A DNA stretch of 44,700 bases from Escherichia phage vb_EcoS_bov11C2 (MT884012.2); one strand, 5' to 3'. Shown: positions 2,024 to 43,307, numbered from the stretch's first letter. Numbers and translations: made by a program. Notes: a model not told the origin generated them from the letters alone.

Positions 2024-3544
2024 ATGACCGTTAACGTTGACAACCAGCACCCGCTCTATGCGCGCATTGCGCCAGAGTGGAAGATGATCCGCGATTGTGT
2101 AGCAGGGGAGCGCGCCGTGAAGGCGTGCGGCCCTTTGTACCTGCCTCATCCCGCCAGTGGCGACAATACTGACCCGAAAGCACGGGCGCGGTATAAGGCG
2201 TACAAGCAACGCGCGGTATTCCTGAACGCCACCGCCCGCACACTAAACGCGCTGTTAGGCGTCGCCTTTGCAAAACCTGTAAGTCTGGACCTTTCCGGGG
2301 TGATGGCTGACCTGATTGACGACGTAGACGGCAGCGGTATGCCATTGCCGCAACTTCTGCGCGGTGCTATGTCGGAAGTTCTGCAATCGGGACGCGCGGG
2401 CTTTATGGTGGACTACGACCGCCAGGCTAACTTTGATGAACTGGGTAACGTAGTGCCACAGACAGCCGCCGAGATGGCGGCACACCGACCGCTTATCCGC
2501 CTGTATACGGCAGAGCAGATCATCAACTGGCGGCAGACCCACGGCGTCGATACGCTAATTGTGCTGAAGGAAACGGACGAAATCAGCACCGAAGACCCTG
2601 ACGATTTCGCAAACCACGAAGTAACAATCTGGACCGAGCTTCGCATGATTGACGGCAAGGCACACGCCCGCCGCTGGTTTTACAACGCGGACACGTCCGA
2701 AGTGAAGATGGACTTGCCGCGAGGCTTCACCAGAACCGATCTTGTGCCGTTGGTGGATGCTTCCGGTAATGCGCTTACGCAACTACCGTTTTGCTGGTGC
2801 GGTGCGGTGGACAACAACGCAACGCCTGACGCCGCTCCGCTGGCGGATATCGCATCCATCAACATTAAGCACTACAACGCCGAAGCGGACGTCGCCGAGA
2901 TCGCGCACATCGTGGGTCAGCCTACCCTGGTTGCGACGGGCTTGACTCAATCATGGGCTGACAAGAACCTGAAGGGAGGCATTGCCCTCGGTGCGACTAA
3001 GGGCGTTATCCTGGGCCAGAACATGGACGCTAAACTGATCCAGGCGGAGGAGCGCAACTTGTCGGTTGCACTGTGTGAGCGTCGCGAATTGCAAATGGCT
3101 AAACTTGGCGCGGCCCTGGTCGAGAAGGGGACCGCACCTAAGACGGCAACCGAGGCGGCCTACGATGCGCAGACTGATAACAGTATCCTGTCGCTTATTG
3201 CCGGTAACGTTGAGAAGGCTTTCAACCGTGCGCTGCAAATCGTCCAACTCTTCACCGGTGACACCGCCGACCAGCGTGTGACGCTGAATAAGTTCTACAC
3301 CGAGATCACGGTTGATGCGCAGCTTATGACCGCGATGATGTCGGGTGTGCAGACGGGTACGGTCCGCCTGGCTGATTTCATCAAGTGGATGATGGCGCAG
3401 GGTGTCATCGACGACTCGCAAACCGTCGAGCAGGTTGAAGACGAATTGCGGAATCAGAATCCATTGCCTCAAATGTCCCCTGATGCGGTAGAATCTACCG
3501 AAGAAGACCCGGACAAGGTAGCGGACAATGGCGAAGACAATTAA
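2024..3544 (+). CDS. portal protein
   Basis: 506 aa ORF immediately after the large terminase, RBS AAGGA, acidic C-terminus; call rests on position and size. Confidence 0.75.
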   Translation: MTVNVDNQHPLYARIAPEWKMIRDCVAGERAVKACGPLYLPHPASGDNTDPKARARYKAYKQRAVFLNATARTLNALLGVAFAKPVSLDLSGVMADLIDDVDGSGMPLPQLLRGAMSEVLQSGRAGFMVDYDRQANFDELGNVVPQTAAEMAAHRPLIRLYTAEQIINWRQTHGVDTLIVLKETDEISTEDPDDFANHEVTIWTELRMIDGKAHARRWFYNADTSEVKMDLPRGFTRTDLVPLVDASGNALTQLPFCWCGAVDNNATPDAAPLADIASINIKHYNAEADVAEIAHIVGQPTLVATGLTQSWADKNLKGGIALGATKGVILGQNMDAKLIQAEERNLSVALCERRELQMAKLGAALVEKGTAPKTATEAAYDAQTDNSILSLIAGNVEKAFNRALQIVQLFTGDTADQRVTLNKFYTEITVDAQLMTAMMSGVQTGTVRLADFIKWMMAQGVIDDSQTVEQVEDELRNQNPLPQMSPDAVESTEEDPDKVADNGEDN

Positions 3545-4631
3545 TCAACATTTGGCGGATCGAATGATTCGCCGTCACATCTTCACCCAGCGCCTGAGCA
3601 ATGATCAGGCGCGGAGGGTGCTGGCTATGTGGGAGAAGTTCCGGCCCACTTTACTTGGTAAGCTGACCGAGTTACTTGATGGCAAAAAGTCCATGAGCAA
3701 CAAGGCACTTACCACACTGTTAACTCAACTCGACAAGACCGTCAAAACGGAACTGCGCGCCGAGTTTAAAGTGCTGGCGGAGAGCCTTCAGGAGTTCGCC
3801 GACGCCGAGGCTAATTATCTAGCAGACACACTAACGGCAGCGATCCAGCCCGCTGTCGCCGTACCGGCTGTTGAAGTAGTTGGCGTTGTTACCGGCGCGC
3901 AGATTGCAGCGACGGCAATGAAAAACCCGTTCCAGGGTAATACTATGATGCAATGGCCTGATTCCCTTTCCGAGTGGACCAGGACGCAGATCGGCAATCA
4001 GGTGCGCGCCGGATTCATCCAGGGAAAGCCAACGATGGAAATTATCGCGGACGTGAGGCGCGCGCTAGGCGGTCGTAGTGCGCAAGCCATCTCAAGCGTT
4101 GTTAAGTCCGCAGTCAACCACTATGCGGCGACCGCCCGCGAACTAATGGTAAAAGCAAATGACGATATTCTCGAAGGTCGCCAATGGTTATCTACATTGG
4201 ACACGCATACTTCTCCCATGTGCCAGCTACGCGATCGCCTGTTTTATCCGGTTGATGTTACTCCCGATACGAAAGGGAAGCGCGGCGGGAAAGTGGTGGC
4301 TGGATCACAATATGGCGCTGGTCCGGGCAAGCTACATTATTGCTGCCGTTCGACGGAGACGTGGAAAGTCAAAGGTATGGAAGATTGGCCCAGTGGTAAG
4401 CGTCCGGCACTGAAGGCTGACGCAGGCAGATTGCTGAGTGAGCAGGTAGACGCGCAGACTGATTTCTTCTCATGGGTGCAGCGCCAGCCGCGCCATATCC
4501 TGGAAGAATTATATGGAGTGCAACGCGCCGACCAGATTATGCGCGGCGTGAAAGTGCCGAAGATGTTCACCGATTCTGGTGAACTGATGACTATTGCACA
4601 GCTTAAAAACCGGGGGTTATGGCGTGATTAA
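3528..4631 (+). CDS. head morphogenesis protein (Mu F / SPP1 gp7-like)
   Basis: 367 aa ORF overlapping the portal stop; order terminase-portal-MuF-like is canonical; sequence features fit that family from memory. Confidence 0.7.
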   Translation: MAKTINQHLADRMIRRHIFTQRLSNDQARRVLAMWEKFRPTLLGKLTELLDGKKSMSNKALTTLLTQLDKTVKTELRAEFKVLAESLQEFADAEANYLADTLTAAIQPAVAVPAVEVVGVVTGAQIAATAMKNPFQGNTMMQWPDSLSEWTRTQIGNQVRAGFIQGKPTMEIIADVRRALGGRSAQAISSVVKSAVNHYAATARELMVKANDDILEGRQWLSTLDTHTSPMCQLRDRLFYPVDVTPDTKGKRGGKVVAGSQYGAGPGKLHYCCRSTETWKVKGMEDWPSGKRPALKADAGRLLSEQVDAQTDFFSWVQRQPRHILEELYGVQRADQIMRGVKVPKMFTDSGELMTIAQLKNRGLWRD

Positions 4632-4953
4632 ATATGCAGCGATTGGGCTGGTTATCGGTCTGGCGGTAGGATTCTGGCTAGGTGACTCCTATCGCGCGGG
4701 CGTAGTGGCGGAGGCAGCGCAAGAAGCGCAAGCCCAAGCCCAACGGCAGCAAACTAAAGTTGTTGAGCGCTCCGTGCAGGCAGAACAAGCCCGCGACGTA
4801 GAATACCGGACTATCACGAAAGAGGTTGTTAAATATGTTACGCGCCCTAACCGCCCTGATTGTAGTTTTGATGCTGAGCGCGTGCGGATCAAGCAACGCG
4901 CCGTTGATGCCGCTAACGGAGTCGGCGCTGCGACCGCCGTGCAAGTTCGATAA
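4624..4953 (+). CDS. i-spanin (Rz-like), putative
   Basis: GTG start overlapping the upstream stop, RBS GGGGG; N-terminal TM helix IKYAAIGLVIGLAVGFWLG then Ala/Gln-rich coiled-coil-like region; contains the o-spanin ORF in the +1 frame. Confidence 0.6.
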   Translation: MIKYAAIGLVIGLAVGFWLGDSYRAGVVAEAAQEAQAQAQRQQTKVVERSVQAEQARDVEYRTITKEVVKYVTRPNRPDCSFDAERVRIKQRAVDAANGVGAATAVQVR

Positions 4954-5065
4954 CCCGTCCGCGGACCCCGACGAAGATTTGATGATTGACGTGAAAAATA
5001 TGGAATGCGGGGCGAAGCTAAGGGCGCAGGTGCTGGAGTTGCAGCAAATAATTAAGGGGCCGTAA
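4835..5065 (+). CDS. o-spanin lipoprotein (Rz1-like), overlapped
   Basis: Signal peptide MLRALTALIVVLMLSAC with lipobox L-S-A-C, Pro-rich short mature part, RBS AGAGG 10 nt upstream; starts inside the i-spanin frame and extends past its stop. Confidence 0.65.
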   Translation: MLRALTALIVVLMLSACGSSNAPLMPLTESALRPPCKFDNPSADPDEDLMIDVKNMECGAKLRAQVLELQQIIKGP

Positions 5066-5077
5066 TGGCCCCTTTTT
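5056..5077. terminator. bidirectional intrinsic terminator
   Basis: GGGGCC-gtaat-GGCCCC followed by TTTTT; sits between convergent genes (o-spanin stop 5065, minus-strand gene end 5080). Confidence 0.7.
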
Positions 5078-5079
5078 CG

Positions 5080-5844
5080 TTAGCGCGGAATGCCGCAAAT
5101 CTCGTTAAGTGTCTTCACATCCAGCGCCACTGCCGTGGATTTTGGCTTGTCCGGGTACGGGATGAATTGCTCGACTTCAGGCCATGCCTTAATCAGCTTC
5201 TTGTCAGTATTGTGCAGGTCCAGCACACCGGTAACGGTCAACTTGAATGCGTCATACTTCGCACGCAATTCGCGGCGGGCCTGGTCGTTACGGTCCAGGC
5301 GCTTACAGAAGTCATGGTCCGCAGGGTAATCTGCGCGACCGCGAGGGAGATATATCGGCAGCGCTTTCCCGTCCTCGTCCACTTCGCACACTGACGCGAG
5401 CATAACTGTCTCGAACCCCGGAACGATATCGCCGAGATCAGGCGCGAGCTTATTCATATATTTCTCTTCCCAGTATCCGCGATGTACGCGGTATCGGCGA
5501 CCGTCACCGCTCAAGGACAAGGTGCGAACATTTCCGCCTGCGTTGATTTCGAAAGTGGCGTCGTAAACGCTGCCGATACCTTTCGGGCGGTCGGTGTTAT
5601 AACTATATGTCGCCTTGTTGGTGTATACACAGACGCCGTACATCTGCGACTGGTCGTCGCGAATTGCCTTGATATGCTCGCGGAGCGCTGCGAACGTGCG
5701 AATGCCTTCCGGCATACAGTCCAGCGTTATTGCGTACGCCAGATCGCGTGAGTCCATCATGATTTGTTTGGCTTCGGTTGCGATTTCGTGGTCGCGCAGG
5801 ATGTTAGATAGGATCTGATTTTTAATGTCTTTTGTCAGTCTCAT
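5080..5844 (-). CDS. hypothetical protein, antisense island in head module
   Basis: 254 aa ORF on the opposite strand to all surrounding late genes; no confident family assignment. Confidence 0.6.
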   Translation of the reverse strand: MRLTKDIKNQILSNILRDHEIATEAKQIMMDSRDLAYAITLDCMPEGIRTFAALREHIKAIRDDQSQMYGVCVYTNKATYSYNTDRPKGIGSVYDATFEINAGGNVRTLSLSGDGRRYRVHRGYWEEKYMNKLAPDLGDIVPGFETVMLASVCEVDEDGKALPIYLPRGRADYPADHDFCKRLDRNDQARRELRAKYDAFKLTVTGVLDLHNTDKKLIKAWPEVEQFIPYPDKPKSTAVALDVKTLNEICGIPR

Positions 5845-6217: not shown

Positions 6218-6263
6218 CTGTTGGTGTGCAACCAATATACTGCAACCAACATCCGCAATGCAA
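6218..6263 (-). promoter_or_regulatory. sigma70-like promoter with ATTGGTTGCA motif pair and operator-like inverted repeat
   Basis: Minus strand reads TTGCAT (-35, 6258-6263), 18-nt spacer, TATATT (-10, 6234-6239), then GGTTGCACACCAACAG; the 22-nt TATATTGGTTGCACACCAACAG is identical to 39900-39921. Confidence 0.5.
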
Positions 6264-17067: not shown

Positions 17068-17675
17068 CCACATTTAAATTATACGGCGTTTTAGGACGTC
17101 GATTCGGTAAAGTGCACAAGCTGGACTGCTTTACACCGGGCGAGGGTATCACCGGCCTGTGCGTGAAGTTACCGGGCTTACAGGACTTTCTAATGTCGGC
17201 ACACCTGGACAACATGATGTTCAAAGTGCGCAAGGGCAATCACACTATGACCGGCTACGACGAGTTGGGTGAGTTCCACGGCGACCGCGTAGTGACCATC
17301 GCGCCGGTTATGACTGGCGCAAAAAGCGGACTGGGCCAATTGCTGGCGGGTGTCGCAATCGTGGTGGCGTCGTTTTATACCGGCGGGCTTGCGACTGCCG
17401 CTTTCGGAGCTTCAGCGGCGACCGCGGCCGCTATCGGCGCCGCGACGTTTTCGTTTGGGATGTCGATGGCGCTGGGCGGCGTTATGCAATTGCTGTCCCC
17501 GCAACCGAAAGGATTGCAGACAAGGCAGGATGTGGATAATAAGGCGTCTTATGCGTTCGGCGGCCCAGTAAACACGACCGCGCAAGGCACGGCACTTGGG
17601 GTATTATGGGGAGAGCGTGAGATCGGCGGCGCTATTATTTCAGCCGGAATCGTAACCGAGGATTTGAACGAATGA
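17058..17675 (+). CDS. tail assembly protein I-like
   Basis: 205 aa, ubiquitin-like N-terminal region then Gly/Ala-rich hydrophobic segment; between K-like and J-like genes. Confidence 0.7.
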   Translation: MAMTTFKLYGVLGRRFGKVHKLDCFTPGEGITGLCVKLPGLQDFLMSAHLDNMMFKVRKGNHTMTGYDELGEFHGDRVVTIAPVMTGAKSGLGQLLAGVAIVVASFYTGGLATAAFGASAATAAAIGAATFSFGMSMALGGVMQLLSPQPKGLQTRQDVDNKASYAFGGPVNTTAQGTALGVLWGEREIGGAIISAGIVTEDLNE

Positions 17676-20600
17676 CGATTGTCTATGATGTCACAGGCCA
17701 TAAAGGCGGCGGTGGCAAACAGCACACCCCACAGGAGACACCAGATAGCCTGCATTCGCTGGCTAAAATCCGCATCTTGCTTGCGCTGGGAGAAGGGGAG
17801 TTCGAAGGTATTCCAGACCCTAACGAATTACGGCGGCGCGTATATCTGGACGGAACACCGATCCAGAATGCAGACCTGTCTGAAAACTTCCCAGGCGCGC
17901 GTGTGGAGTTCCGCCCCGGAACACAGCACCAGGATGTGATCCACGGATTTTCAGCGGTGGAAAGTGAGCAATCTGTCGGCGTAAAACTGGAAAACGGCAC
18001 GCCGTGGGTGCGCCAGATTAACGACACCAGTTTGGACGCCGTGCGCATTCGCATCGGCATTCCGGCCCTGTACACAAACGAAGATAATGGCGACCTGGTG
18101 GGCGGGCGCATCGACTATAAGATCGTTGTGTATACGGATAACGCGGACCCGCGTGAGTTCAGATTCGCCGCCGTTGGTAAAACAATGTCGCTGTATGAGC
18201 GCGACCACCGCATCGAATTACCTCCGAACGTTAACACCGGCTGGCGCGTGGAGGTGCACCGCATAACGGCAGACTCCACATCGGCGAAAGTGGTTAATGA
18301 TATCCGGGTGCAGTCCATCACTGAGATTATTGACGCCCGCCTGCGTTACCCGCTAACCGCGCTGTTGTTTGTGGAGTTCGACGCCAAAGCGTTCCAGAAC
18401 ATCCCGCGCGTGTCCATCAAGTGCAAAGGCCGCAAAGTTCTAATACCGAACAACTACGATCCGATTAATCATACCTATTCCGGGGACTGGGACGGCACGT
18501 TTAAACGCGCATGGACGGATAACCCTGCGTGGCACTGGTACGATATTTGTATTACTGAGCGCTTCGGCCTCGGTCGGCGTATCAAACCGCAAATGTTAAA
18601 CCGGTACGCGCTCTACCAGATTGCGCAGCGCTGCGATCAGTTGGTCAGCGACGGCAACGGCGGTAGAGAAATCCGCTTTAAGAACGATATGTACATCCAG
18701 TCGCAGACAGACGCCTGGACCGTGCTTAAGGATTTAGCAGCTATCTTTGCCGGTATGACCTGGTGGGGAAACCAGATGTTGAATATCGTAAGTGACCAGC
18801 CGGTCGCAGCGGTATCGCACACTATCACCAACGCCTCGGTTATTGATGGCAGATTCGACTACGCGTCCGGTAGCCAGAAAACTCGGTATTCCACATTCGC
18901 GGTAGCATACGGCAACCCGAAGAACCACTATGAAGATGCCATTGCTACGGGTCAGCGTGTCGAACTGGTACGCCGCCATAAGATTAACCGTCTGGATATA
19001 ACGGCGATCGGCTGTACGCGTGAGTCAGAAGCGCAACGACGTGGGCACTGGGCGCTAATCTCCAACCAGCTTGACCAGCAAGTTAGCTTTAAGGTTGGCA
19101 TGGAGGGACTTTTCTTTATTCCGGGTAGCGTAGTCGCGATCGCCGATACAAACATTTCTGGCGGCTTCGAGACACGCGGCGGTCGCCTGTTGTCGGACCC
19201 TGGCACGCGGACGGTGCTGAACACAGACAGCGAAATCACGTTCCGCCCCGGTGATAAATTCCTGGTGCGCACCGATAGCGGAAATGTGGAGACTCGCGAG
19301 ATTGCCAGCGTCAACGGCAACAAGGTTACGCTAAAAACCGCACTGGATGCCGACCCGATCCCAGATCAACCGTTTTGCGTGGATGGCAACGATATCCAGT
19401 TGCAGAAATTCCGCATCACCGACCTGGAATATGACGACTCTACCAGCACTTTCTCGGTGCGCGGGATCGAGTACAACGATAGTAAATACGATGCCGTTGA
19501 TAATGGCGCTCGCCTTGATCCGGGCATCTTCACGCAAGTTCCTGATGGCGTAATGAAGGGGCCGGAATCCGTGACCATCACTCCGTCGCAGATTTCATCG
19601 CAAGGCCAGCTAATCACCAACGTGGATATTGTATTCCCGCCGGTGAAGGACGCCGTTGTGTATGAAATCCAGTGGCGACGCACCAGCTTGCAGAATATGG
19701 AAATCCAGTGGGGTAACGACTGGGTGAATATTCCGCGCACGGCGTCGAATGGCGCGCATATCCCAAACGTGTTTTCCGGTAACTATCAGGCACGCGTTCG
19801 CGCGATCGGTATGGGCGAGATTTCATCACCGTGGGTGTCGTCCGCTATCACGCCGGTGGAAGGTCGTCTCGGAGGTCTTAACGCACCTATCATCACCAAC
19901 GCGATTTCGGGCCTTCATCAAATTTTGTGGAAGTGGAACCACAACAACGCCGCGACGGATATCTCTTACACCGAGCTTGAAGTGCGCAAGACTGGTGAAA
20001 CGGAATGGAAGTTTCTTACAAACGTCCCATATCCGGGGGCGGAGTATGCCCAAACGTCGCTGGAGTTCGGGATCTATCAGCAGTTGCGCACCCGCGTAGC
20101 GGATAAAATCGGCAACCTGTCGGACTGGTCTGCCCCATTTGAAGGCCAGGTGAGTGACAAAGTTGACGAGTACATGAAGGGGCTTGACGACGAGTTCTTG
20201 ACTTCTGAGGATGGTAAACGCTTCCAGGAAGCGATCGACACCATTCCGCAAGGCATTTATGAAGCCATGCTCACCGACGCACAGCAATTGTTTAACGCCC
20301 GCACCGAGTACAAGGGTATTTATGCGGAAATCTCGGTCGCGTATAACGTGGCGGCGGACGCCCACAAGGCGGTCGCTCAACTGGAGACGTTGATCGGCAC
20401 GAGACTGGACGATGCTGAAGCGGCGATCCACACGCTGCAGACGGCGCAGAGTACGCACGAACAAGCGTTCGCCCAGTACCAACAAACTGTTGCCGCTAAG
20501 TTCGGGGAACAGGAAGCCGCCATCCAGCAGGTACAAACGGCGACTGCCGACGTAGCTGGCGCGCTGGCGGAGTATAAGACCCAGGTCGCGGCGCAGTTCG

Positions 20601-21118
20601 GGCAGCAGTCCGCAGCTATCGAGCAGAAGATGACGTCTTCGTTTAACCACGCTGGTGGTAGCGCCACTTACAGCCTTAAGGCTGGCGTGACGTATAACGG
20701 GACTTACTATGATGCGGGTATGCAGCTTTCCGTTGTGACGTCTGGCAACGCAGTTAAATCGCGTATTGCGTTCAAGGCGGACCAGTTCTACATCATGCAC
20801 CCATCTAATGGGTCGCTTTCGTCCGCGTTTATCGTAGACGGCGGGCAGGTGTACATCGACACGGCACGTATCAAGAACGCGTCAATCAACTTTGCGCAGA
20901 TCACGGACACGCTGCGGTCGAATAACTTCGTTGCGGGGTCGTCAGGGTGGAACCTGCCTAAATCTGGTAACGCGGAATTGAACAACGTAACGGTACGCGG
21001 CAACTTGTTCGCTACTACGGGGAACTTCGGATTCTCCGGCGGGTCCGTTACGATCGACTCAACGGGTGTTAACGTGCCATTACCTGGCGGGGGCAGGGTG
21101 AAAGTCGGGACGTGGTAA
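17672..21118 (+). CDS. tail tip / central fibre protein J-like
   Basis: 1148 aa, largest ORF after tape measure, follows the L/K/I-like genes, beta-rich C-terminal domains. Confidence 0.85.
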   Translation: MTIVYDVTGHKGGGGKQHTPQETPDSLHSLAKIRILLALGEGEFEGIPDPNELRRRVYLDGTPIQNADLSENFPGARVEFRPGTQHQDVIHGFSAVESEQSVGVKLENGTPWVRQINDTSLDAVRIRIGIPALYTNEDNGDLVGGRIDYKIVVYTDNADPREFRFAAVGKTMSLYERDHRIELPPNVNTGWRVEVHRITADSTSAKVVNDIRVQSITEIIDARLRYPLTALLFVEFDAKAFQNIPRVSIKCKGRKVLIPNNYDPINHTYSGDWDGTFKRAWTDNPAWHWYDICITERFGLGRRIKPQMLNRYALYQIAQRCDQLVSDGNGGREIRFKNDMYIQSQTDAWTVLKDLAAIFAGMTWWGNQMLNIVSDQPVAAVSHTITNASVIDGRFDYASGSQKTRYSTFAVAYGNPKNHYEDAIATGQRVELVRRHKINRLDITAIGCTRESEAQRRGHWALISNQLDQQVSFKVGMEGLFFIPGSVVAIADTNISGGFETRGGRLLSDPGTRTVLNTDSEITFRPGDKFLVRTDSGNVETREIASVNGNKVTLKTALDADPIPDQPFCVDGNDIQLQKFRITDLEYDDSTSTFSVRGIEYNDSKYDAVDNGARLDPGIFTQVPDGVMKGPESVTITPSQISSQGQLITNVDIVFPPVKDAVVYEIQWRRTSLQNMEIQWGNDWVNIPRTASNGAHIPNVFSGNYQARVRAIGMGEISSPWVSSAITPVEGRLGGLNAPIITNAISGLHQILWKWNHNNAATDISYTELEVRKTGETEWKFLTNVPYPGAEYAQTSLEFGIYQQLRTRVADKIGNLSDWSAPFEGQVSDKVDEYMKGLDDEFLTSEDGKRFQEAIDTIPQGIYEAMLTDAQQLFNARTEYKGIYAEISVAYNVAADAHKAVAQLETLIGTRLDDAEAAIHTLQTAQSTHEQAFAQYQQTVAAKFGEQEAAIQQVQTATADVAGALAEYKTQVAAQFGQQSAAIEQKMTSSFNHAGGSATYSLKAGVTYNGTYYDAGMQLSVVTSGNAVKSRIAFKADQFYIMHPSNGSLSSAFIVDGGQVYIDTARIKNASINFAQITDTLRSNNFVAGSSGWNLPKSGNAELNNVTVRGNLFATTGNFGFSGGSVTIDSTGVNVPLPGGGRVKVGTW

Positions 21119-21123
21119 ATGCG

Positions 21124-21147
21124 AAGGGGCCATATGGCCCCTTTTTT
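21124..21147. terminator. bidirectional intrinsic terminator
   Basis: AAGGGGCC-atat-GGCCCCTT then TTTTTT; between convergent J-like gene (ends 21118) and minus-strand gene (ends 21146). Confidence 0.7.
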
Positions 21148-22111
21148 AATACATGTTAGGGATGACGAGTAACGGGGTGGGTACGGTTATGTTGCGGTTA
21201 GGCATCTGGAATTGCTGCCGTGAGTAGTTACCAATCACGCGATTTCGAGCCGAGCTAACCACGTTGCCTGCCATGCGTATCCCGTTCATTCTCACGTGGT
21301 TGTATCCGCTGTTGTTCTCAATAAGCGCGCCGGTATATGAAAGCTGTACGAGGCTGTTACCGATATTCTGACCACCAGTGCCGATATTAATAACGGAATT
21401 GAGAACAAACGGCTTATTCACGGTAGAGAACGTGACCTGCCCCTGGTTGTTCGTCATGGTTATACCGGTCCCCGGTGATGGCGGCGTGTTATTGAAGATA
21501 ACCAAATCCAGGTCCACTTCGGCCCCTACGTCGTCGATCCCGCCATAAGACGAATTGCGGACGATGATATTACTGCCATCAAATCCTACCGACACGTTGC
21601 CATTATCCCAGCGCGCGAACGGGATACCGCCCACAGGCAAAGGCATACTACCGTTCACGTGCACGCGCTGCGCGTAGCGGCAGGTCATTAGCCGGGACAC
21701 GTTGGAAATCGCGGTGAAGTCTGTCGAGTTCGCCACCAGCAAGCCCGCATTGCGTGACCCCACCGGCAGCACTTCCATAATTATCCCCGCCCATTGAGGG
21801 AGGCCGCTGTAGGCGTTATACGCGTCCGCGCCTCGTAGAATAATTCCGCTATCCCCGTTGCGTTGTACCGACGTCACGTAGAACGGATCTGGAAGAACCA
21901 GCGTTTGGTCGAATACCTCAATCACTTCGACAGGGCGCGTGAGCGCAACGACAAGATCCGACCCAGGTGTTAGCGGGGTGTTAATGGTCAGCGTCTTGTC
22001 TGACTGGCAGCGTTGATCAAACGTAGTGCAGTATGACGGAGCGCGTAGACCGGCAGTTATCTCCATCACCGTCCTTCCGTCGTTGTAGTCTATAAGTATT
22101 CCAGCGCCCAT
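21146..22111 (-). CDS. beta-rich hypothetical protein, candidate receptor-binding protein
   Basis: ATG 22111 with RBS GGGAG (GTG 22120 alternative); Gly/Asn/Ser/Thr/Val-rich; opposite strand to tail genes, co-transcribed with the upstream lipoprotein gene. Confidence 0.55.
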   Translation of the reverse strand: MGAGILIDYNDGRTVMEITAGLRAPSYCTTFDQRCQSDKTLTINTPLTPGSDLVVALTRPVEVIEVFDQTLVLPDPFYVTSVQRNGDSGIILRGADAYNAYSGLPQWAGIIMEVLPVGSRNAGLLVANSTDFTAISNVSRLMTCRYAQRVHVNGSMPLPVGGIPFARWDNGNVSVGFDGSNIIVRNSSYGGIDDVGAEVDLDLVIFNNTPPSPGTGITMTNNQGQVTFSTVNKPFVLNSVINIGTGGQNIGNSLVQLSYTGALIENNSGYNHVRMNGIRMAGNVVSSARNRVIGNYSRQQFQMPNRNITVPTPLLVIPNMY

Positions 22112-22113
22112 AA

Positions 22114-22335
22114 TTACCACTCCCGAGATTTAACTGATACCGTACCAGAGAAGTTGCCGTCGCTATCCGCGGACAGGCCGGTGAAGCGCATATCCACATC
22201 TCCGGCAGGCACTTTTTGCCCATCGACGTAGCGCAACATGCAGCTACCGTAAGCTACCGTAATGCAATCGCCGTTGTTACGTTCTACCGCACAGCCGGAC
22301 AGAAGAACCGAACAAATCACAATTAATGTTTTCAT
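22114..22335 (-). CDS. small lipoprotein, candidate superinfection exclusion (Llp/Cor-like)
   Basis: ATG 22335 with RBS GGGAGA; signal peptide MKTLIVICSVLLSGC with lipobox L-S-G-C; mature part about 57 aa. Confidence 0.6.
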   Translation of the reverse strand: MKTLIVICSVLLSGCAVERNNGDCITVAYGSCMLRYVDGQKVPAGDVDMRFTGLSADSDGNFSGTVSVKSREW

Positions 22336-22415
22336 GTTATCATCTCCCATATTTGGTTGAGTTTTAGTATTGCACCGCTCAATCGAGAATGCAACCAATC
22401 TATGAGGATTTAGCT

Positions 22416-24032
22416 ATGGCAGCGGGTACTTTATCCGTAACGAATAACAGCAAGGCGGTTGTAGGGGTAGGCACAACGTTTACCGCGTTTAAAGCTGGCG
22501 ACTTCTTATCGCTGGTAGTGGGGCAAGTCCCTTACACTGTCGCTATTGCATCCGTAGAAAGCGACACGTCTCTTACGCTGGTGTTACCGTTCGACGGACC
22601 AACGGCAACCGGCCTAGCCTGGGACGGCGTTAAGCGCGATACCATGTCATTGGCAACGATGGGCGTTACCGTACAGGCACAAAAAGCATTGCGCTTGATG
22701 ATTGCAGATGAAAACAACTGGCGTGCAATCTTCGGCGACGCTGAAGAAATCACAGTGACGTTACCTAACGGGCAGGTTATGCAGGGCATGTCATGGGGCT
22801 ATCTGTCGCAGCTAATGAAGCAGATCGACCCTGTGGAGATGCGCAACCTGCAACAACAAGCAGCCGCATCGGAAGCAGCCGCGCAAGGATTTCGCAATGA
22901 GGCCGAAGGATTTCGCCATGAAGCCGAAGGATTCAAGGTGCAGAGCCTGGCAATCCTCAACAGCACGCAGGAGGTCCACGACGCCACCAGCACCATCAAG
23001 GACCAGACGAACCAGATCAAGACGGATACGCAGGCCATCAAGGACCAGACGAACCAGATCAAGACGGATACTGGCGTTATTCGAGATCAGGCCAATACAG
23101 CGAAGACGGACGCGCAAGCCGCCCGCGATGCCGCGCAGGGGTATCGGGATGAAGCCGAAGACTTCAAAAACGCGATCGACCCTACGCAATTCATGAAGAA
23201 GTCGCAGAACCTGGCAGACGTCGCAGATAAATCGTCGGCACGCGCTAATCTTGGTCTGGGGTCTGTAGCTACGGAGAACACCGTACCCATCGGGAAAGGC
23301 GGCACTGCGGCGACAACGGCAGCGGCAGCACGCGCTAATCTTGGCGTTGGTGATGATAGTAACGTTAAACACGCAACATTACGTCTGAATGGTGGGGAGT
23401 CATTAGTATTCGATGACGTCGAAAGAAACGGCTTAGTTCTGTCTAACGTATCGTATGGGATTGACAGTTGGGTAGGCTTCACCATGCACAAATGGTACGC
23501 CGACTGGGTGCGCGCAGGCATTGTTCGCGCTGCTAACACTCAAATGTCGGACTACCGGATTCATACGTGGAAGAACGGTGTTTCCGAGGCGCTATTCCGC
23601 TTCCTGCCGGACGGCAGGCTGATTCAGGGTAACAGCGGCAACCCTTCCGTAAATGAGTTTCAGAAAGCAGCGCTATCGGACCGCGACCTTAAAAAAGAAA
23701 TCCAATACACTGACGGCGAGGAAAGCTACAACCGCGTTCGTCAATGGCTTCCGGCAATGTTCAAGTATAAGGAGTCTGACGTACAGCGATACGGCCTTAT
23801 CGCACAGGACCTGGCAAGGATTGACCCAGAATATGTGCACTTGCTGCCGGGTTATGCCATTTATGAGGATATCAAGGGGGTGGACGAGGAAGGGAACGAA
23901 GTTGTAGTCGACCGAAAGGAGATCGGGTATACAGACGATGTGCTGTCGCTTGATAGTAACGTGTTGTTAATGGATCTGTGCGCCGCCTTCGTTCACCTGT
24001 TGCGGAAAGTGGAGAAGCTAGAAGGTAAATAA
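22416..24032 (+). CDS. side tail fibre with C-terminal self-cleaving chaperone domain (peptidase S74-like)
   Basis: ATG 22416 with RBS GAGGA; internal repeats (GFRNEAEGFRHEAEGFK; IKDQTNQIKTDT x2); C-terminal region with S-D-R-D-L-K (Ser...Lys at i+5) from 23676. Confidence 0.75.
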   Translation: MAAGTLSVTNNSKAVVGVGTTFTAFKAGDFLSLVVGQVPYTVAIASVESDTSLTLVLPFDGPTATGLAWDGVKRDTMSLATMGVTVQAQKALRLMIADENNWRAIFGDAEEITVTLPNGQVMQGMSWGYLSQLMKQIDPVEMRNLQQQAAASEAAAQGFRNEAEGFRHEAEGFKVQSLAILNSTQEVHDATSTIKDQTNQIKTDTQAIKDQTNQIKTDTGVIRDQANTAKTDAQAARDAAQGYRDEAEDFKNAIDPTQFMKKSQNLADVADKSSARANLGLGSVATENTVPIGKGGTAATTAAAARANLGVGDDSNVKHATLRLNGGESLVFDDVERNGLVLSNVSYGIDSWVGFTMHKWYADWVRAGIVRAANTQMSDYRIHTWKNGVSEALFRFLPDGRLIQGNSGNPSVNEFQKAALSDRDLKKEIQYTDGEESYNRVRQWLPAMFKYKESDVQRYGLIAQDLARIDPEYVHLLPGYAIYEDIKGVDEEGNEVVVDRKEIGYTDDVLSLDSNVLLMDLCAAFVHLLRKVEKLEGK

Positions 24033-25198: not shown

Positions 25199-25260
25199 GA
25201 TGTTTTCCTTTTTAGTGGAGGCGGTATTGCCCCCGACGTGATTAAGATACTGCAACCAAC

Positions 25261-25731
25261 CTATTGGTTGCAAGTAAATTTTGCAACGTTTATTGCGTAA
25301 ATTTTCGGGACTAAATCGCTGCACGCCCGACGAATTGCCGCGATGTTCTTCGGGCAGTCTTCAATGATGACCAGTTCCGATACGTCCGCATAGCAGACCA
25401 TTTTGAACACAGCGTACGCTTTAAACTCTGGCGGCGGGGTGTCGTCCAGCATGTGGCGCATGAACAACCGGCCTCTAGGGAATACTTCCAATTGCTCGGC
25501 TGTGGTGTCCCAGCATTCTCGCTGCCGGTTGGTCAGATACGCGATCTCGAAGCCTTGCTCTTTGTACATGGTCAGCAGCGGCAGCATATCCATGTTCAGA
25601 TCTTCGCGTATATGCGCTTTGTGCCACTTCGCCCAAAAGGTGGATTTTGTTTTTATGCCCGGAACCAGGTCGGCACGCGCATCGCTTGAACCGTTAATAA
25701 CGCCATCCAAATCGCAAATCAGTAATTTCAT
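25261..25731 (-). CDS. HAD-family phosphatase-like protein
   Basis: N-terminal LICDLDGVI (HAD motif I DxDG), RBS GAGGAG; 156 aa. Confidence 0.55.
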   Translation of the reverse strand: MKLLICDLDGVINGSSDARADLVPGIKTKSTFWAKWHKAHIREDLNMDMLPLLTMYKEQGFEIAYLTNRQRECWDTTAEQLEVFPRGRLFMRHMLDDTPPPEFKAYAVFKMVCYADVSELVIIEDCPKNIAAIRRACSDLVPKIYAINVAKFTCNQ

Positions 25732-27151: not shown

Positions 27152-27187
27152 TCAATATAATGCAACCAATATTATTATGCAACCAAT

Positions 27188-30104: not shown

Positions 30105-30383
30105 CTATGCGACCAATTCAGCAACCAATAAATCGCAGTCGGATATGTTGTCGATAACGCGAACGTCAGCACCGCGGCGGGCCATTCGCTCATGTTCACG
30201 TACCTGGTGCGGCTTCGGTTTTCCTCCGGGGCGCTTCACTTCGACGAACACTATTTTGCCGTTGATGATAATAATCAGGTCGGGCGCACCCGCGCGCCCC
30301 TCCCATGCCAGTTTTCGGCAGAATCCGCCGACCTCTTTCACCCGTTTCATCAGGTGACTTTGAATCTTGCCTTCCGGTGTCAT
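30105..30383 (-). CDS. VRR-NUC-like nuclease
   Basis: ATG 30383 overlapping the polymerase stop; GAPDLIIIINGKIVFVEVKRPGG ... Q pattern (PD ... E-V-K). Confidence 0.55.
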   Translation of the reverse strand: MTPEGKIQSHLMKRVKEVGGFCRKLAWEGRAGAPDLIIIINGKIVFVEVKRPGGKPKPHQVREHERMARRGADVRVIDNISDCDLLVAELVA

Positions 30384-33682: not shown

Positions 33683-33772
33683 TTTCCAATTCCTCATTTT
33701 CACATGTATCGGGGTTATTGGAAGCCACCCCGTTCGGCTTGGTTGCCAATTTACTTGGTTGCGCCTGAGCGG

Positions 33773-36641: not shown

Positions 36642-36671
36642 ATAATAGATTGGTTGCAGGATGGGTGTCAA
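36642..36671 (-). promoter_or_regulatory. strong sigma70-like early-left promoter
   Basis: Minus strand TTGACA (36666-36671), 18-nt spacer containing TGCAACCAAT, TATTAT (36642-36647); about 190-nt leader to ATG 36445. Confidence 0.55.
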
Positions 36672-39453: not shown

Positions 39454-39548
39454 AATTTGCGCGCATTGGTTGCCGTTTTAAGTGTTTTTATCTGGTCGTA
39501 TTGGTTGCCGTGTAGTGTAGATATAATGAATAGTTATGCATTGAAACT

Positions 39549-39716: not shown

Positions 39717-39876
39717 AATAAAATCCGGGGATTGCAAAACACACGGCAGCATGATGCGAAGTGCGGTCGCGGATGAACTAGGCAACCAATGCTAGTAGCA
39801 TTATGCTGAGTGAAAAATGCGGTTTGCAGTTGCAGCAGATAGCGATCAACTTTTTCATGCGCGTGATTAATATTGG

Positions 39877-39921
39877 TTGCATCCGCCCAGGCACCCTGCT
39901 ATATTGGTTGCACACCAACAG
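39877..39921 (+). promoter_or_regulatory. sigma70-like promoter with ATTGGTTGCA pair and operator-like inverted repeat
   Basis: TTGCAT (39877-39882), 17-nt spacer, TATATT (39900-39905), TTGGTTGCACACCAA at the predicted start, then RBS AGGAGG and ATG 39933. Confidence 0.5.
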
Positions 39922-40444: not shown

Positions 40445-40714
40445 ATGAGCCGTAGACGAGCCAAACAGCTTTCGTGGCATATTCCCCTGCATTGCATACG
40501 AATATGGGCTAAGAATGCGACTGAGGGCGATTCTGTATTATGGTGTTATCGCGATGACGTTAAGCCGTTAACGCAGACTCGCTACTTGCACCAGTTCGCA
40601 GCACAACACGATTTCAGGGTGCGGACTTCCTTGCAACCAATGGGAATACGTATTACATTACGCCGAAAGCCAGCCATTGAGCGGGTAGGCAAACACTGGA
40701 GACTGAGCAAATGA
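40445..40714 (+). CDS. hypothetical protein
   Basis: 89 aa ORF in the early-right operon series. Confidence 0.45.
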   Translation: MSRRRAKQLSWHIPLHCIRIWAKNATEGDSVLWCYRDDVKPLTQTRYLHQFAAQHDFRVRTSLQPMGIRITLRRKPAIERVGKHWRLSK

Positions 40715-43101: not shown

Positions 43102-43307
43102 ATTGCTTGACTCGCAACCAACACAGGGGCCATACTGCAACCAATCAACTGGAGGAGTAATCAAGATGGCACGTAAAGATATTTGGGTATTAGCGATCTG
43201 GACCACCGCGGCTTTTATCGGCATGGTTATTTGCGAATTGATATAGCCCGCCGCCATACGGACCGTGGTATATTGTCCACGGTCCACTAATCAGGAATTA
43301 ATTAAAT

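What the first reader, a model, noticed from the sequence alone, without database searches (positions are those of the whole stretch)
21146..22335. Lipoprotein plus beta-rich protein pair on the opposite strand between the tail tip and side fibre genes
A small secreted lipoprotein (lipobox LLSGC, mature about 57 aa) is co-transcribed with a 320-aa Gly/Asn/Ser/Thr-rich protein, both antisense to the tail genes. The promoter region contains ATTGGTTGCAT, so expression may be early. This mirrors the phage T5 arrangement of the receptor-binding protein gene (oad, pb5) next to the receptor-blocking lipoprotein gene llp, and resembles Cor-type exclusion lipoproteins of T1/phi80-like phages. The pair may therefore encode the receptor-binding protein and a lytic-conversion lipoprotein that masks the receptor.
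Basis: partly seen in the sequence, partly recalled or inferred. Interest (0 to 1): 0.65.

Follow-up and report, generated by a model that had tools for sequence, protein, structure and literature searches.

The report
Phage LptD-binding protein plus exclusion lipoprotein
These two genes are the phage's tail-tip receptor-binding protein, predicted to bind the E. coli outer-membrane LPS exporter LptD, and the small lipoprotein predicted to block that receptor in infected cells; close relatives have already been solved by cryo-EM, so the pair is ordinary.

Summary
The window is the complete genome of Escherichia phage vb_EcoS_bov16_1 (Dhillonvirus). Between the J-like tail-tip gene and the lateral tail-fibre gene lie two minus-strand genes. 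One encodes a 73-aa lipoprotein precursor (22335..22114, lipobox LSGC). The other encodes a 321-aa all-beta protein (22111..21146).

This module is already described.
- The lipoprotein is 96% identical to Oekolampad's putative exclusion lipoprotein and 34% identical to Rtp45. Rtp45 was solved on the periplasmic face of LptDE (PDB 9RPS). The Cys pair of Rtp45 is conserved.

The receptor is therefore predicted to be LptD, not FhuA or BtuB. The proteins are functional analogues of T5 pb5/Llp and of Cor, not homologues.

The ATTGGTTGCAT motif is a real, genome-wide, mostly intergenic element, but early expression is untested.

Novelty and interest are low. One side lead: Gordonclarkvirinae podoviruses carry the same two families.

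The parts
22114..22335 (-). Superinfection-exclusion (SE) lipoprotein gene. The precursor is 73 aa. It has a signal peptide with lipobox LSGC (Cys15), Ala at +2, and a mature length of 59 aa. Cys24 and Cys32 correspond to the Cys30-Cys38 disulfide of Rtp45.
   Evidence: Pfam PF24052 Phage_lipoprotein at 8.7e-21. PDB 9rps_D (Rtp45) at E=4.3e-8. 70/73 identical to Oekolampad bas18_0026. 34% identical to Rtp45 with aligned cysteines.
21146..22111 (-). Terminal receptor-binding protein (RBP) gene. The product is 321 aa, all-beta, of family DUF6453, and is predicted to bind the extracellular face and lumen of LptD-LptE.
22366..22399 (-). Putative sigma-70-type promoter of the lipoprotein-RBP operon. 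It comprises the motif ATTGGTTGCAT (22399-22389, with TTGCAT as a weak -35 at 22394-22389), a 17-nt spacer, and an extended -10 TGcAATACT (22374-22366). It lies in the divergent intergenic region shared with the lateral fibre gene.
   Evidence: Read directly from the sequence. The motif is 12-fold enriched. The same TTGCAT-N17-TATATT layout occurs at 27177 and 39872. The region is conserved in Oekolampad. The consensus scanner did not call it, so function is inferred only.
21126..21141 (.). GC-rich palindrome GGGGCCATATGGCCCC between the convergent J and RBP genes. On the + strand it is followed by TTTTTT (21142-21147), so it is a likely terminator for the tail operon. It is a weaker terminator for the minus-strand operon.
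   Evidence: Sequence. RNA fold gives an 8-bp stem, centroid -15.7 kcal/mol, z = -2.35. The consensus scanner missed it; I think the perfect palindrome, which leaves no loop, is why, but I did not check this.
17672..21118 (+). J-like central tail fibre / tail-tip protein (1148 aa). Its C-terminal Phage_Tail_Tip domain is the presumed docking site for the RBP. The last ~90 codons (from ~20850) have diverged together with the RBP gene.
   Evidence: Pfam FNIII-A_GpJ, Phage-tail_3 and Phage_Tail_Tip at aa 982-1118. 97% identical to Oekolampad J, with substitutions clustered at aa 1081-1130. dS is 1.21 for aa 1061-1148 against 0.40 for aa 1-1060.
22416..24032 (+). Lateral tail fibre, included as context. 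It is the first-contact, glycan-targeting fibre and has a C-terminal intramolecular chaperone domain. Its distal part is unrelated to that of Oekolampad.
   Evidence: Pfam Peptidase_S74 at 2.8e-9 and PHROG 1980 tail fibre. Nucleotide identity to Oekolampad falls to 24-60% across 22950-24024.

Best explanation
The pair is the 'RBP locus' of a Dhillonvirus that uses the LPS translocon LptDE as its terminal receptor.

The 321-aa DUF6453 protein is made for virion assembly. It sits non-covalently on the distal Phage_Tail_Tip domain of the J-like central fibre. After the lateral fibres have engaged surface glycans, it inserts into the extracellular side and lumen of LptD, contacting loops EL3-5 and EL11. 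That commits the phage to irreversible adsorption and DNA ejection.

The 73-aa precursor encoded just upstream is exported, lipidated at Cys15 and sorted to the inner leaflet of the outer membrane (Ala at +2). There it binds the periplasmic rim of LptD between LptE and LptM and pushes a beta-hairpin up the lumen. This displaces EL4, so the RBP of this phage and of relatives can no longer bind. Infected cells and their debris then stop capturing progeny or superinfecting phage.

What is shown, and for which protein:
- Shown for homologues: RBP_Oeko bound to LptDE, and Rtp45 bound to LptDE.
- Shown here: homology, near-identical fold, synteny, lipobox and the conserved Cys pair.
- Inferred: LptD specificity of this allele, docking on J, the exclusion phenotype, and transcription from the TTGCAT-N17-TGcAATACT promoter.
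For: - The window is identical to phage vb_EcoS_bov16_1, a Dhillonvirus.
- The RBP hits PDB 9rpt_C at 1.9e-181 and is 273/321 identical to Oekolampad bas18_0025 with no gaps.
- Gln299, named as an LptD EL4 contact in PMC12685063, is conserved.
- Identity is 33% to Rtp44 and 34% to the TheodorHerzl/Bas14 homologue, both at full coverage. This meets the >30% identity and >99% coverage rule used to define the LptD RBP family in bioRxiv 10.64898/2026.04.02.716166.
- Phage BF9, whose RBP is 98.4% identical, is already listed as a predicted LptD-dependent phage (PMC13035648).
- The lipoprotein is PF24052, 96% identical to SE_Oeko, and 34% identical to Rtp45 with Cys24/Cys32 aligned to Cys30/Cys38.
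- Gene order J / RBP / lipoprotein / lateral fibre is the same as in Oekolampad and Rtp.
- Literature: RBP loci downstream of gpJ match receptor specificity without exception (PMC8594841). The structures and mechanism are in PMC12685063.
Against: - Nothing has been measured for this phage. Its receptor, the virion location of the 321-aa protein and any exclusion phenotype are all untested.
- The RBP differs from RBP_Oeko at 48 positions. Variable patches lie at aa 237-247, 284-287 and 301-310. I could not map them onto the LptD interface, because only one contact residue is named in the text I could read.
- SE_Oeko could not be expressed by Dunbar et al., so its exclusion function is itself inferred from Rtp45, which is 35% identical.
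- Physical attachment of the RBP to J has not been visualised for any member.
- The promoter is weak by consensus and was not called by the scanner.
Confidence: 0.88

Rival explanations
1. The architecture is the same (tail-tip RBP plus exclusion lipoprotein), but this allele targets a different outer-membrane protein such as FhuA, BtuB, YncD or LamB.
For: The RBP has 15% amino-acid divergence from the only member solved in complex. Dhillonvirus phages as a genus use FhuA, LptD, BtuB or LamB (PMC11990801).
Against: Loci for different receptors encode unrelated protein families with different gene arrangements (PMC8594841; bioRxiv 2026). FhuA-dependent Dhillonvirus JLBYU60 has a small Ig-like protein plus a 23-kDa protein instead (PMC12309495). 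Every experimentally typed phage with a DUF6453 RBP of this kind that I found (Bas01, Bas14, Bas18, Bas20) is LptD-dependent. dN/dS is 0.08, which indicates purifying selection rather than retargeting.
Confidence: 0.05
2. The 321-aa protein is a non-virion 'membrane protein' or moron, as RefSeq and PHROG label it. On this view the lipoprotein has another role, for example a Cor-type FhuA blocker or a lysis or spanin component.
For: PHROG 1265 is described as 'membrane protein' in the moron category, and there is a weak PHROG Cor hit at E=0.0042. Several RefSeq records say 'membrane protein'.
Against: The cryo-EM entry shows a soluble beta protein bound to the receptor's outer face (PMC12685063). 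The Cor hit covers only residues 1-30, which is the signal peptide. Spanin and lysis genes are annotated elsewhere in the syntenic Oekolampad genome, at bas18_0005/0006 and 0061-0063. The mEp021 homologue is annotated 'virion structural protein'.
Confidence: 0.03
3. The lipoprotein is mainly an assembly factor or chaperone for the RBP. This would explain the tight translational linkage, and on this view it would not be a receptor blocker.
For: The stop codon is 2 nt from the next start codon, and the RBP's ribosome-binding site lies inside the lipoprotein gene. Rtp44 failed to express alone (PMC12685063).
Against: The lipoprotein is exported and lipidated, whereas the RBP has no signal peptide, so they end up in different compartments. 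RBP_Oeko expressed well and folded without it. Rtp45 binds LptDE directly. In ECBP2 the two families are about 45 kb apart.
Confidence: 0.03

Closest known systems
Oekolampad (Bas18, Dhillonvirus) bas18_0025 RBP and bas18_0026 SE lipoprotein; PDB 9RPT/9RPW/9RQI (Dunbar et al., PNAS 2025, PMC12685063)
   Same: Same genus, same gene order and orientation, and same protein lengths (321 and 73 aa). The RBP is 85% identical, the lipoprotein 96% and J 97%. The predicted fold superposes at 1.1 Å.
   Different: There are 48 RBP substitutions. The J C-terminal tip plus the RBP form a block with about three-fold higher synonymous divergence than the rest of J (dS 1.2-1.3 against 0.40). This suggests the block was exchanged by recombination with a more distant lineage. 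The lateral tail fibre tip is unrelated.
Phage Rtp (Drexlerviridae) Rtp44 / Rtp45; PDB 9RPS
   Same: Same two protein families and same position after the J homologue on the opposite strand. The lipobox and the Cys-Cys pair are conserved.
   Different: Identity is only 33-34%, and Rtp belongs to a different phage family. In Rtp the next genes are recombination genes rather than the lateral fibre.
Phage T5 pb5 (oad) and Llp acting on FhuA
   Same: The logic is the same: a monomeric tail-tip RBP for an outer-membrane beta-barrel, plus a small periplasm-facing lipoprotein that prevents RBP binding. The two genes are adjacent.
Cor lipoproteins of T1 / phi80 / N15
   Same: Small phage lipoproteins encoded near tail genes that block the phage's own receptor.
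   Different: The PHROG Cor profile matches only the signal peptide (residues 1-30, E=0.0042). The Pfam assignment is PF24052, not a Cor family. Cor acts on FhuA.

Membership tests
LptD-targeting RBP family of small siphoviruses (DUF6453 / PF20051; Bas18 RBP, Rtp44) | Full-length sequence homology: >30% identity at >99% coverage to typed members, and a Pfam DUF6453 match above the gathering score | tested here: met
   392 bits against a cut-off of 25. 85% identical to Bas18 over 321/321 aa. 33% to Rtp44. 34% to Bas14 at 100% coverage.
LptD-targeting RBP family of small siphoviruses (DUF6453 / PF20051; Bas18 RBP, Rtp44) | Same three-dimensional fold as the solved RBP_Oeko | tested here: met
LptD-targeting RBP family of small siphoviruses (DUF6453 / PF20051; Bas18 RBP, Rtp44) | [quoted passage not shown] | tested here: met
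LptD-targeting RBP family of small siphoviruses (DUF6453 / PF20051; Bas18 RBP, Rtp44) | Physical binding to LptDE, and infection that depends on LptD EL4/EL11 | not testable with these tools
   Shown only for Oekolampad and relatives (PMC12685063, PMC8594841). It needs plating on lptD mutants or a pull-down.
Rtp45-type superinfection-exclusion lipoproteins (PF24052) | Pfam PF24052 match, lipobox, and the conserved Cys pair that forms the Rtp45 Cys30-Cys38 disulfide | tested here: met
   74.1 bits against a cut-off of 27. Lipobox LSGC. Cys24 and Cys32 align with Cys30 and Cys38.
Rtp45-type superinfection-exclusion lipoproteins (PF24052) | Binds the periplasmic face of LptDE and confers resistance to the cognate phage | not testable with these tools
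   The structure exists for Rtp45 only. SE_Oeko, which is 96% identical to this protein, could not be expressed.
T5 pb5 (Oad) receptor-binding protein | Sequence or fold homology to pb5 | tested here: not met
T5 Llp lipoprotein | Sequence homology to Llp | tested here: not met
   The PDB sequence search at E<=10 returned Rtp45 and only chance hits, with no Llp chain. This assumes the FhuA-Llp entry is in the copy searched.
Cor superinfection-exclusion proteins (T1/phi80/N15) | Profile match over the mature protein | tested here: not met
   PHROG 1119 at E=0.0042 covers only residues 1-30, the signal peptide and lipobox. The best PHROG is 4281 at 2.1e-32.

The most novel reading that the evidence does not exclude
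The J-tip plus RBP block of this phage is an anciently diverged allele moved in by recombination. Its 48 substitutions, concentrated in loops at aa 237-247, 284-287 and 301-310, could shift which LptD loops or which LptD alleles are required. If so, this phage and its BF9/WF5505-like relatives could plate on LptD mutants (D352Y, Y671N) that resist Oekolampad. They would still be excluded by the nearly invariant lipoprotein. That would make the pair a natural test set for separating receptor recognition from exclusion on an essential protein.
Probability: 0.12. Interest if true: 0.4.

Novelty: already known. Interest (0 to 1): 0.12.

Why it matters
The practical value is annotation. In GenBank these two genes are labelled 'hypothetical protein' and 'lipoprotein', and homologues are often called 'membrane protein'. 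They can be relabelled as an LptD-type receptor-binding protein and its cognate superinfection-exclusion lipoprotein. The phage's terminal receptor can also be predicted as the essential LptDE complex, which is useful for host-range prediction, cocktail design and anticipating resistance through LptD EL4/EL11 mutations. It does not open a new question: the locus type (Maffei 2021), the structures and mechanism (Dunbar 2025) and genome-based prediction (2026 preprint) already cover it.

Tried and rejected
- Cor membership. The only match is to the signal peptide.
- Defence-system models (PADLOC). No hit for either protein.
- A modular N-terminal anchor shared with other RBP types. This was prompted by a 34-aa hit in Citrobacter phage HCF1. 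It turned out to be a short remnant between a small ORF and an extended J gene in an unverified assembly. I dropped it.
- Mapping the 48 substitutions onto the LptD interface.
- Consensus promoter and terminator scan. It found nothing relevant on the minus strand. The promoter and terminator I propose come from reading the sequence, the motif statistics and folding.
- tRNA and Rfam scans of the whole window. Both were empty.
- Positive selection on the RBP. Omega is 0.08, so the extra divergence is old and synonymous-rich rather than adaptive.

Full report
**What is there**

The window is 100% identical to the 44,700-bp genomes of Escherichia phages vb_EcoS_bov16_1 and vB_EcoS_bov15_1. These are Dhillonvirus isolates from cattle faeces in Hungary.

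The tail operon runs on the + strand and ends with a 1148-aa J-like tail-tip protein (17672..21118). That protein carries FNIII-A_GpJ, Phage-tail_3 and a C-terminal Phage_Tail_Tip domain. Two minus-strand genes converge on it:
- 22335..22114 encodes a 73-aa lipoprotein precursor.
- 22111..21146 encodes a 321-aa protein.

Next, on the + strand, comes the lateral tail fibre (22416..24032), which has a Peptidase_S74 chaperone domain.

The lipoprotein begins MKTLIVICSVLLSG|C. That gives a lipobox LSGC, a mature length of 59 aa, and Ala at +2, which from established Lol-sorting rules predicts outer-membrane sorting. Each gene has its own Shine-Dalgarno sequence. The RBP's ribosome-binding site (GGAG) lies in the last codons of the lipoprotein gene, and stop and start are 2 nt apart, so an operon is likely (inference).

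The 321-aa protein is 35% G+N+S+T and is predicted to be all-beta.

**What it is**

The larger protein is a full-length Pfam DUF6453 (E=2e-117). The small one is Pfam Phage_lipoprotein PF24052 (E=8.7e-21).

Against the PDB, the larger protein hits a single sequence: 9rpt_C 'Tail fiber protein' (E=1.9e-181). This is the receptor-binding protein of Dhillonvirus Oekolampad (Bas18), solved by cryo-EM bound to Shigella LptDE (PMC12685063). I fetched the Oekolampad locus and found:
- the RBPs are 273/321 identical with no gaps;
- the lipoproteins are 70/73 identical, with a single difference in the mature part;
- the J proteins are 97% identical.

The lipoprotein's only significant PDB match is 9rps_D, Rtp45 of phage Rtp (E=4.3e-8). 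Identity is 34%. Cys15, Cys24 and Cys32 align with Rtp45's lipidated Cys20 and its Cys30-Cys38 disulfide. Rtp has the same J / Rtp44 / Rtp45 arrangement, and Rtp44 is 33% identical to the window's RBP.

**How it most likely works**

The literature establishes the following.
- Small siphoviruses (Drexlerviridae, Dhillonvirus, Queuovirinae) encode their terminal-receptor specificity in an 'RBP locus' downstream of gpJ, together with a cognate exclusion protein. Locus type matches the experimentally determined receptor without exception (PMC8594841).
- Bas14 and Bas18 (Dhillonvirus) become non-infective on lptD mutants.
- RBP_Oeko inserts deeply into an open state of LptDE. It contacts EL3-5 and EL11 across a ~1,700 Å2 interface. 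Single LptD changes (D352Y, Y671N) abolish both binding and infection.
- Rtp45 binds the periplasmic side of LptD between LptE and LptM and sends a hairpin up the lumen. This displaces EL4 by up to 20 Å and so blocks RBP binding sterically.

By homology, the window's pair should do the same. The RBP on the J tip should recognise LptD after the lateral fibre has dealt with surface glycans. The lipoprotein should close the receptor in infected cells.

Supporting details:
- Gln299, the one RBP contact residue named in the text, is conserved.
- The protein meets the >30% identity and >99% coverage criterion used to define the LptD RBP family.
- Phage BF9, with a 98.4% identical RBP, is already listed as a predicted LptD-dependent phage (PMC13035648).

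The steps that remain inferred for this phage are LptD specificity, docking on J, the exclusion phenotype and the timing of expression. The exclusion function of the near-identical SE_Oeko is itself inferred, because that protein could not be expressed.

**Divergence pattern**

Nucleotide identity to Oekolampad is about 92% along the tail genes. It drops to 75-80% from ~20850 (the last ~90 codons of J) through the whole RBP gene, and recovers to 85-90% over the lipoprotein gene and the promoter. It then collapses to 24-60% in the distal lateral fibre.

| Region | dS | omega |
|---|---|---|
| RBP | 1.31 | 0.08 |
| J aa 1061-1148 | 1.21 | 0.10 |
| Lipoprotein | 0.74 | 0.02 |
| J aa 1-1060 | 0.40 | 0.03 |

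The J tip and the RBP therefore form an older, jointly inherited or exchanged block under purifying selection. This fits the published view that the GpJ tip must be compatible with the locus-encoded RBP. It argues against recent retargeting.

Within the close Dhillonvirus clade, variation peaks at aa 237-247, 284-287, 51-60, 83-100 and 301-310. Residues 111-135, 271-280 and 291-300 are nearly fixed. Across the wider family, the most conserved stretches are the N-terminal ~25 residues and aa 123-135. These are also the low-confidence parts of the model. The phage-proximal part is poorly ordered in the cryo-EM map. I therefore suggest, as inference only, that these stretches fold on the J tip.

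**The promoter motif**

ATTGGTTGCAT sits at 22399-22389(-). With one mismatch allowed it occurs 12 times against 0.99 expected. The 9-mer core TTGGTTGCA occurs 12 times exactly against 0.24 expected. Of the 23 near-matches, 16 lie in the 7% of the genome that is intergenic. They are often paired, and they sit at corresponding positions in Oekolampad.

At 27177 and 39872 the motif supplies TTGCAT, followed by 17 nt and then TATATT. Upstream of the lipoprotein the layout is TTGCAT-N17-AATACT with TG at -15/-14, and it is conserved in Oekolampad. So the motif is real and plausibly part of a promoter or operator.

The sites precede replication-gene operons, the operon leading to the lysis genes, and small operons inside the structural region. 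The motif therefore does not by itself indicate 'early'.

Between J and the RBP gene lies a perfect GC-rich palindrome (21126-21141). On the + strand it is followed by T6, so it is a good terminator for the tail operon and a weaker one for the minus-strand operon.

The T5 pb5/Llp and Cor comparisons are right about function and wrong about family:
- There is no sequence hit to pb5 or Llp.
- The PHROG Cor hit covers only the signal peptide.
- PADLOC returns nothing.

The receptor differs (LptDE rather than FhuA or BtuB). So does the exclusion mechanism, which is steric loop displacement rather than allostery.

**Verdict**

This is a correctly spotted but already well-described module, and a close allele of a pair with solved structures. 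Novelty is 'already known' and interest is low.

The most useful by-product lies outside the window. Gordonclarkvirinae podovirus ECBP2 encodes a Phage_Tail_Tip 'needle' protein immediately followed by a DUF6453 protein. It also encodes a PF24052 lipoprotein in another part of its genome. The SU10 structural paper never mentions gp19. By gene order in ECBP2 that is likely the corresponding protein, but I did not check the SU10 genome. I found no paper linking these phages to LptD.

Noticed in passing
window 6227-6249, 22390-22398, 25251-25272, 27161-27186, 30108-30128, 33739-33763, 36650-36658, 39466-39509, 39781-39912, 40632-40640, 43113-43144: The core TTGGTTGCA occurs 12 times exactly (0.24 expected). 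Of 23 near-matches, 16 are intergenic although only 7% of the genome is intergenic. Sites mostly come as pairs 12-35 nt apart, and one pair forms the palindrome TGCAACCAAcctaTTGGTTGCA at 25251-25272. Positions are conserved in Oekolampad. It looks like a Dhillonvirus promoter or operator element (TTGCAT as the -35, then N17, then TATATT at two sites). Any regulator that binds it is unknown.
   Followed up: partly
L007 (ECBP2 NC_018859.1) 3635-5666; L008 2474-2800: Gordonclarkvirinae podovirus ECBP2 has a Phage_Tail_Tip (PF09327) tail-needle-like gene directly followed by a DUF6453 gene (Pfam 2.7e-26; 27% identical to the window RBP). Elsewhere in its genome it has a PF24052 lipoprotein (3.5e-36; 40% identical, Cys pair kept). 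Lipoprotein homologues also occur in SU10, ES17, Paul and other Kuravirus-like phages. The SU10 cryo-EM paper never mentions gp19, which by gene order in ECBP2 may be the DUF6453 protein; I did not check the SU10 genome. No paper I found links these phages to LptD. They may therefore carry an LptD-type RBP on the needle tip.
   Followed up: partly
window 20850-22111: The last ~90 codons of J and the whole RBP gene form one block of high synonymous divergence from Oekolampad (dS 1.2-1.3, against 0.40 for the rest of J). Omega is <=0.10, so this looks like modular exchange of J tip plus RBP. The adjacent lipoprotein is almost invariant (one mature-protein substitution).
   Followed up: yes
GenBank and Oekolampad start at ATG 22416, which has GAGGA upstream. 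The 22389 start is probably spurious.
   Followed up: partly
window 22950-24032: The distal two-thirds of the lateral tail fibre share only 24-60% nucleotide identity with Oekolampad, with many gaps. This is the usual glycan-specificity swap, and it implies a different O-antigen or primary-receptor range from Bas18.
   Followed up: no
proteins P0048-P0091: DUF6453 homologues 45-55% identical to the RBP occur on megabase-sized Citrobacter, Salmonella and E. coli contigs. These are probably prophages, so the same RBP type is also used by temperate phages.
   Followed up: no
L005 (Citrobacter phage HCF1 MN545971.1) 3001-3102: A 34-aa remnant, 73% identical to the RBP N-terminus, lies between a small ORF and an extended J gene (1238 aa). 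It looks like a decayed RBP locus in a phage whose J has a C-terminal extension. The assembly is flagged as unverified.
   Followed up: partly
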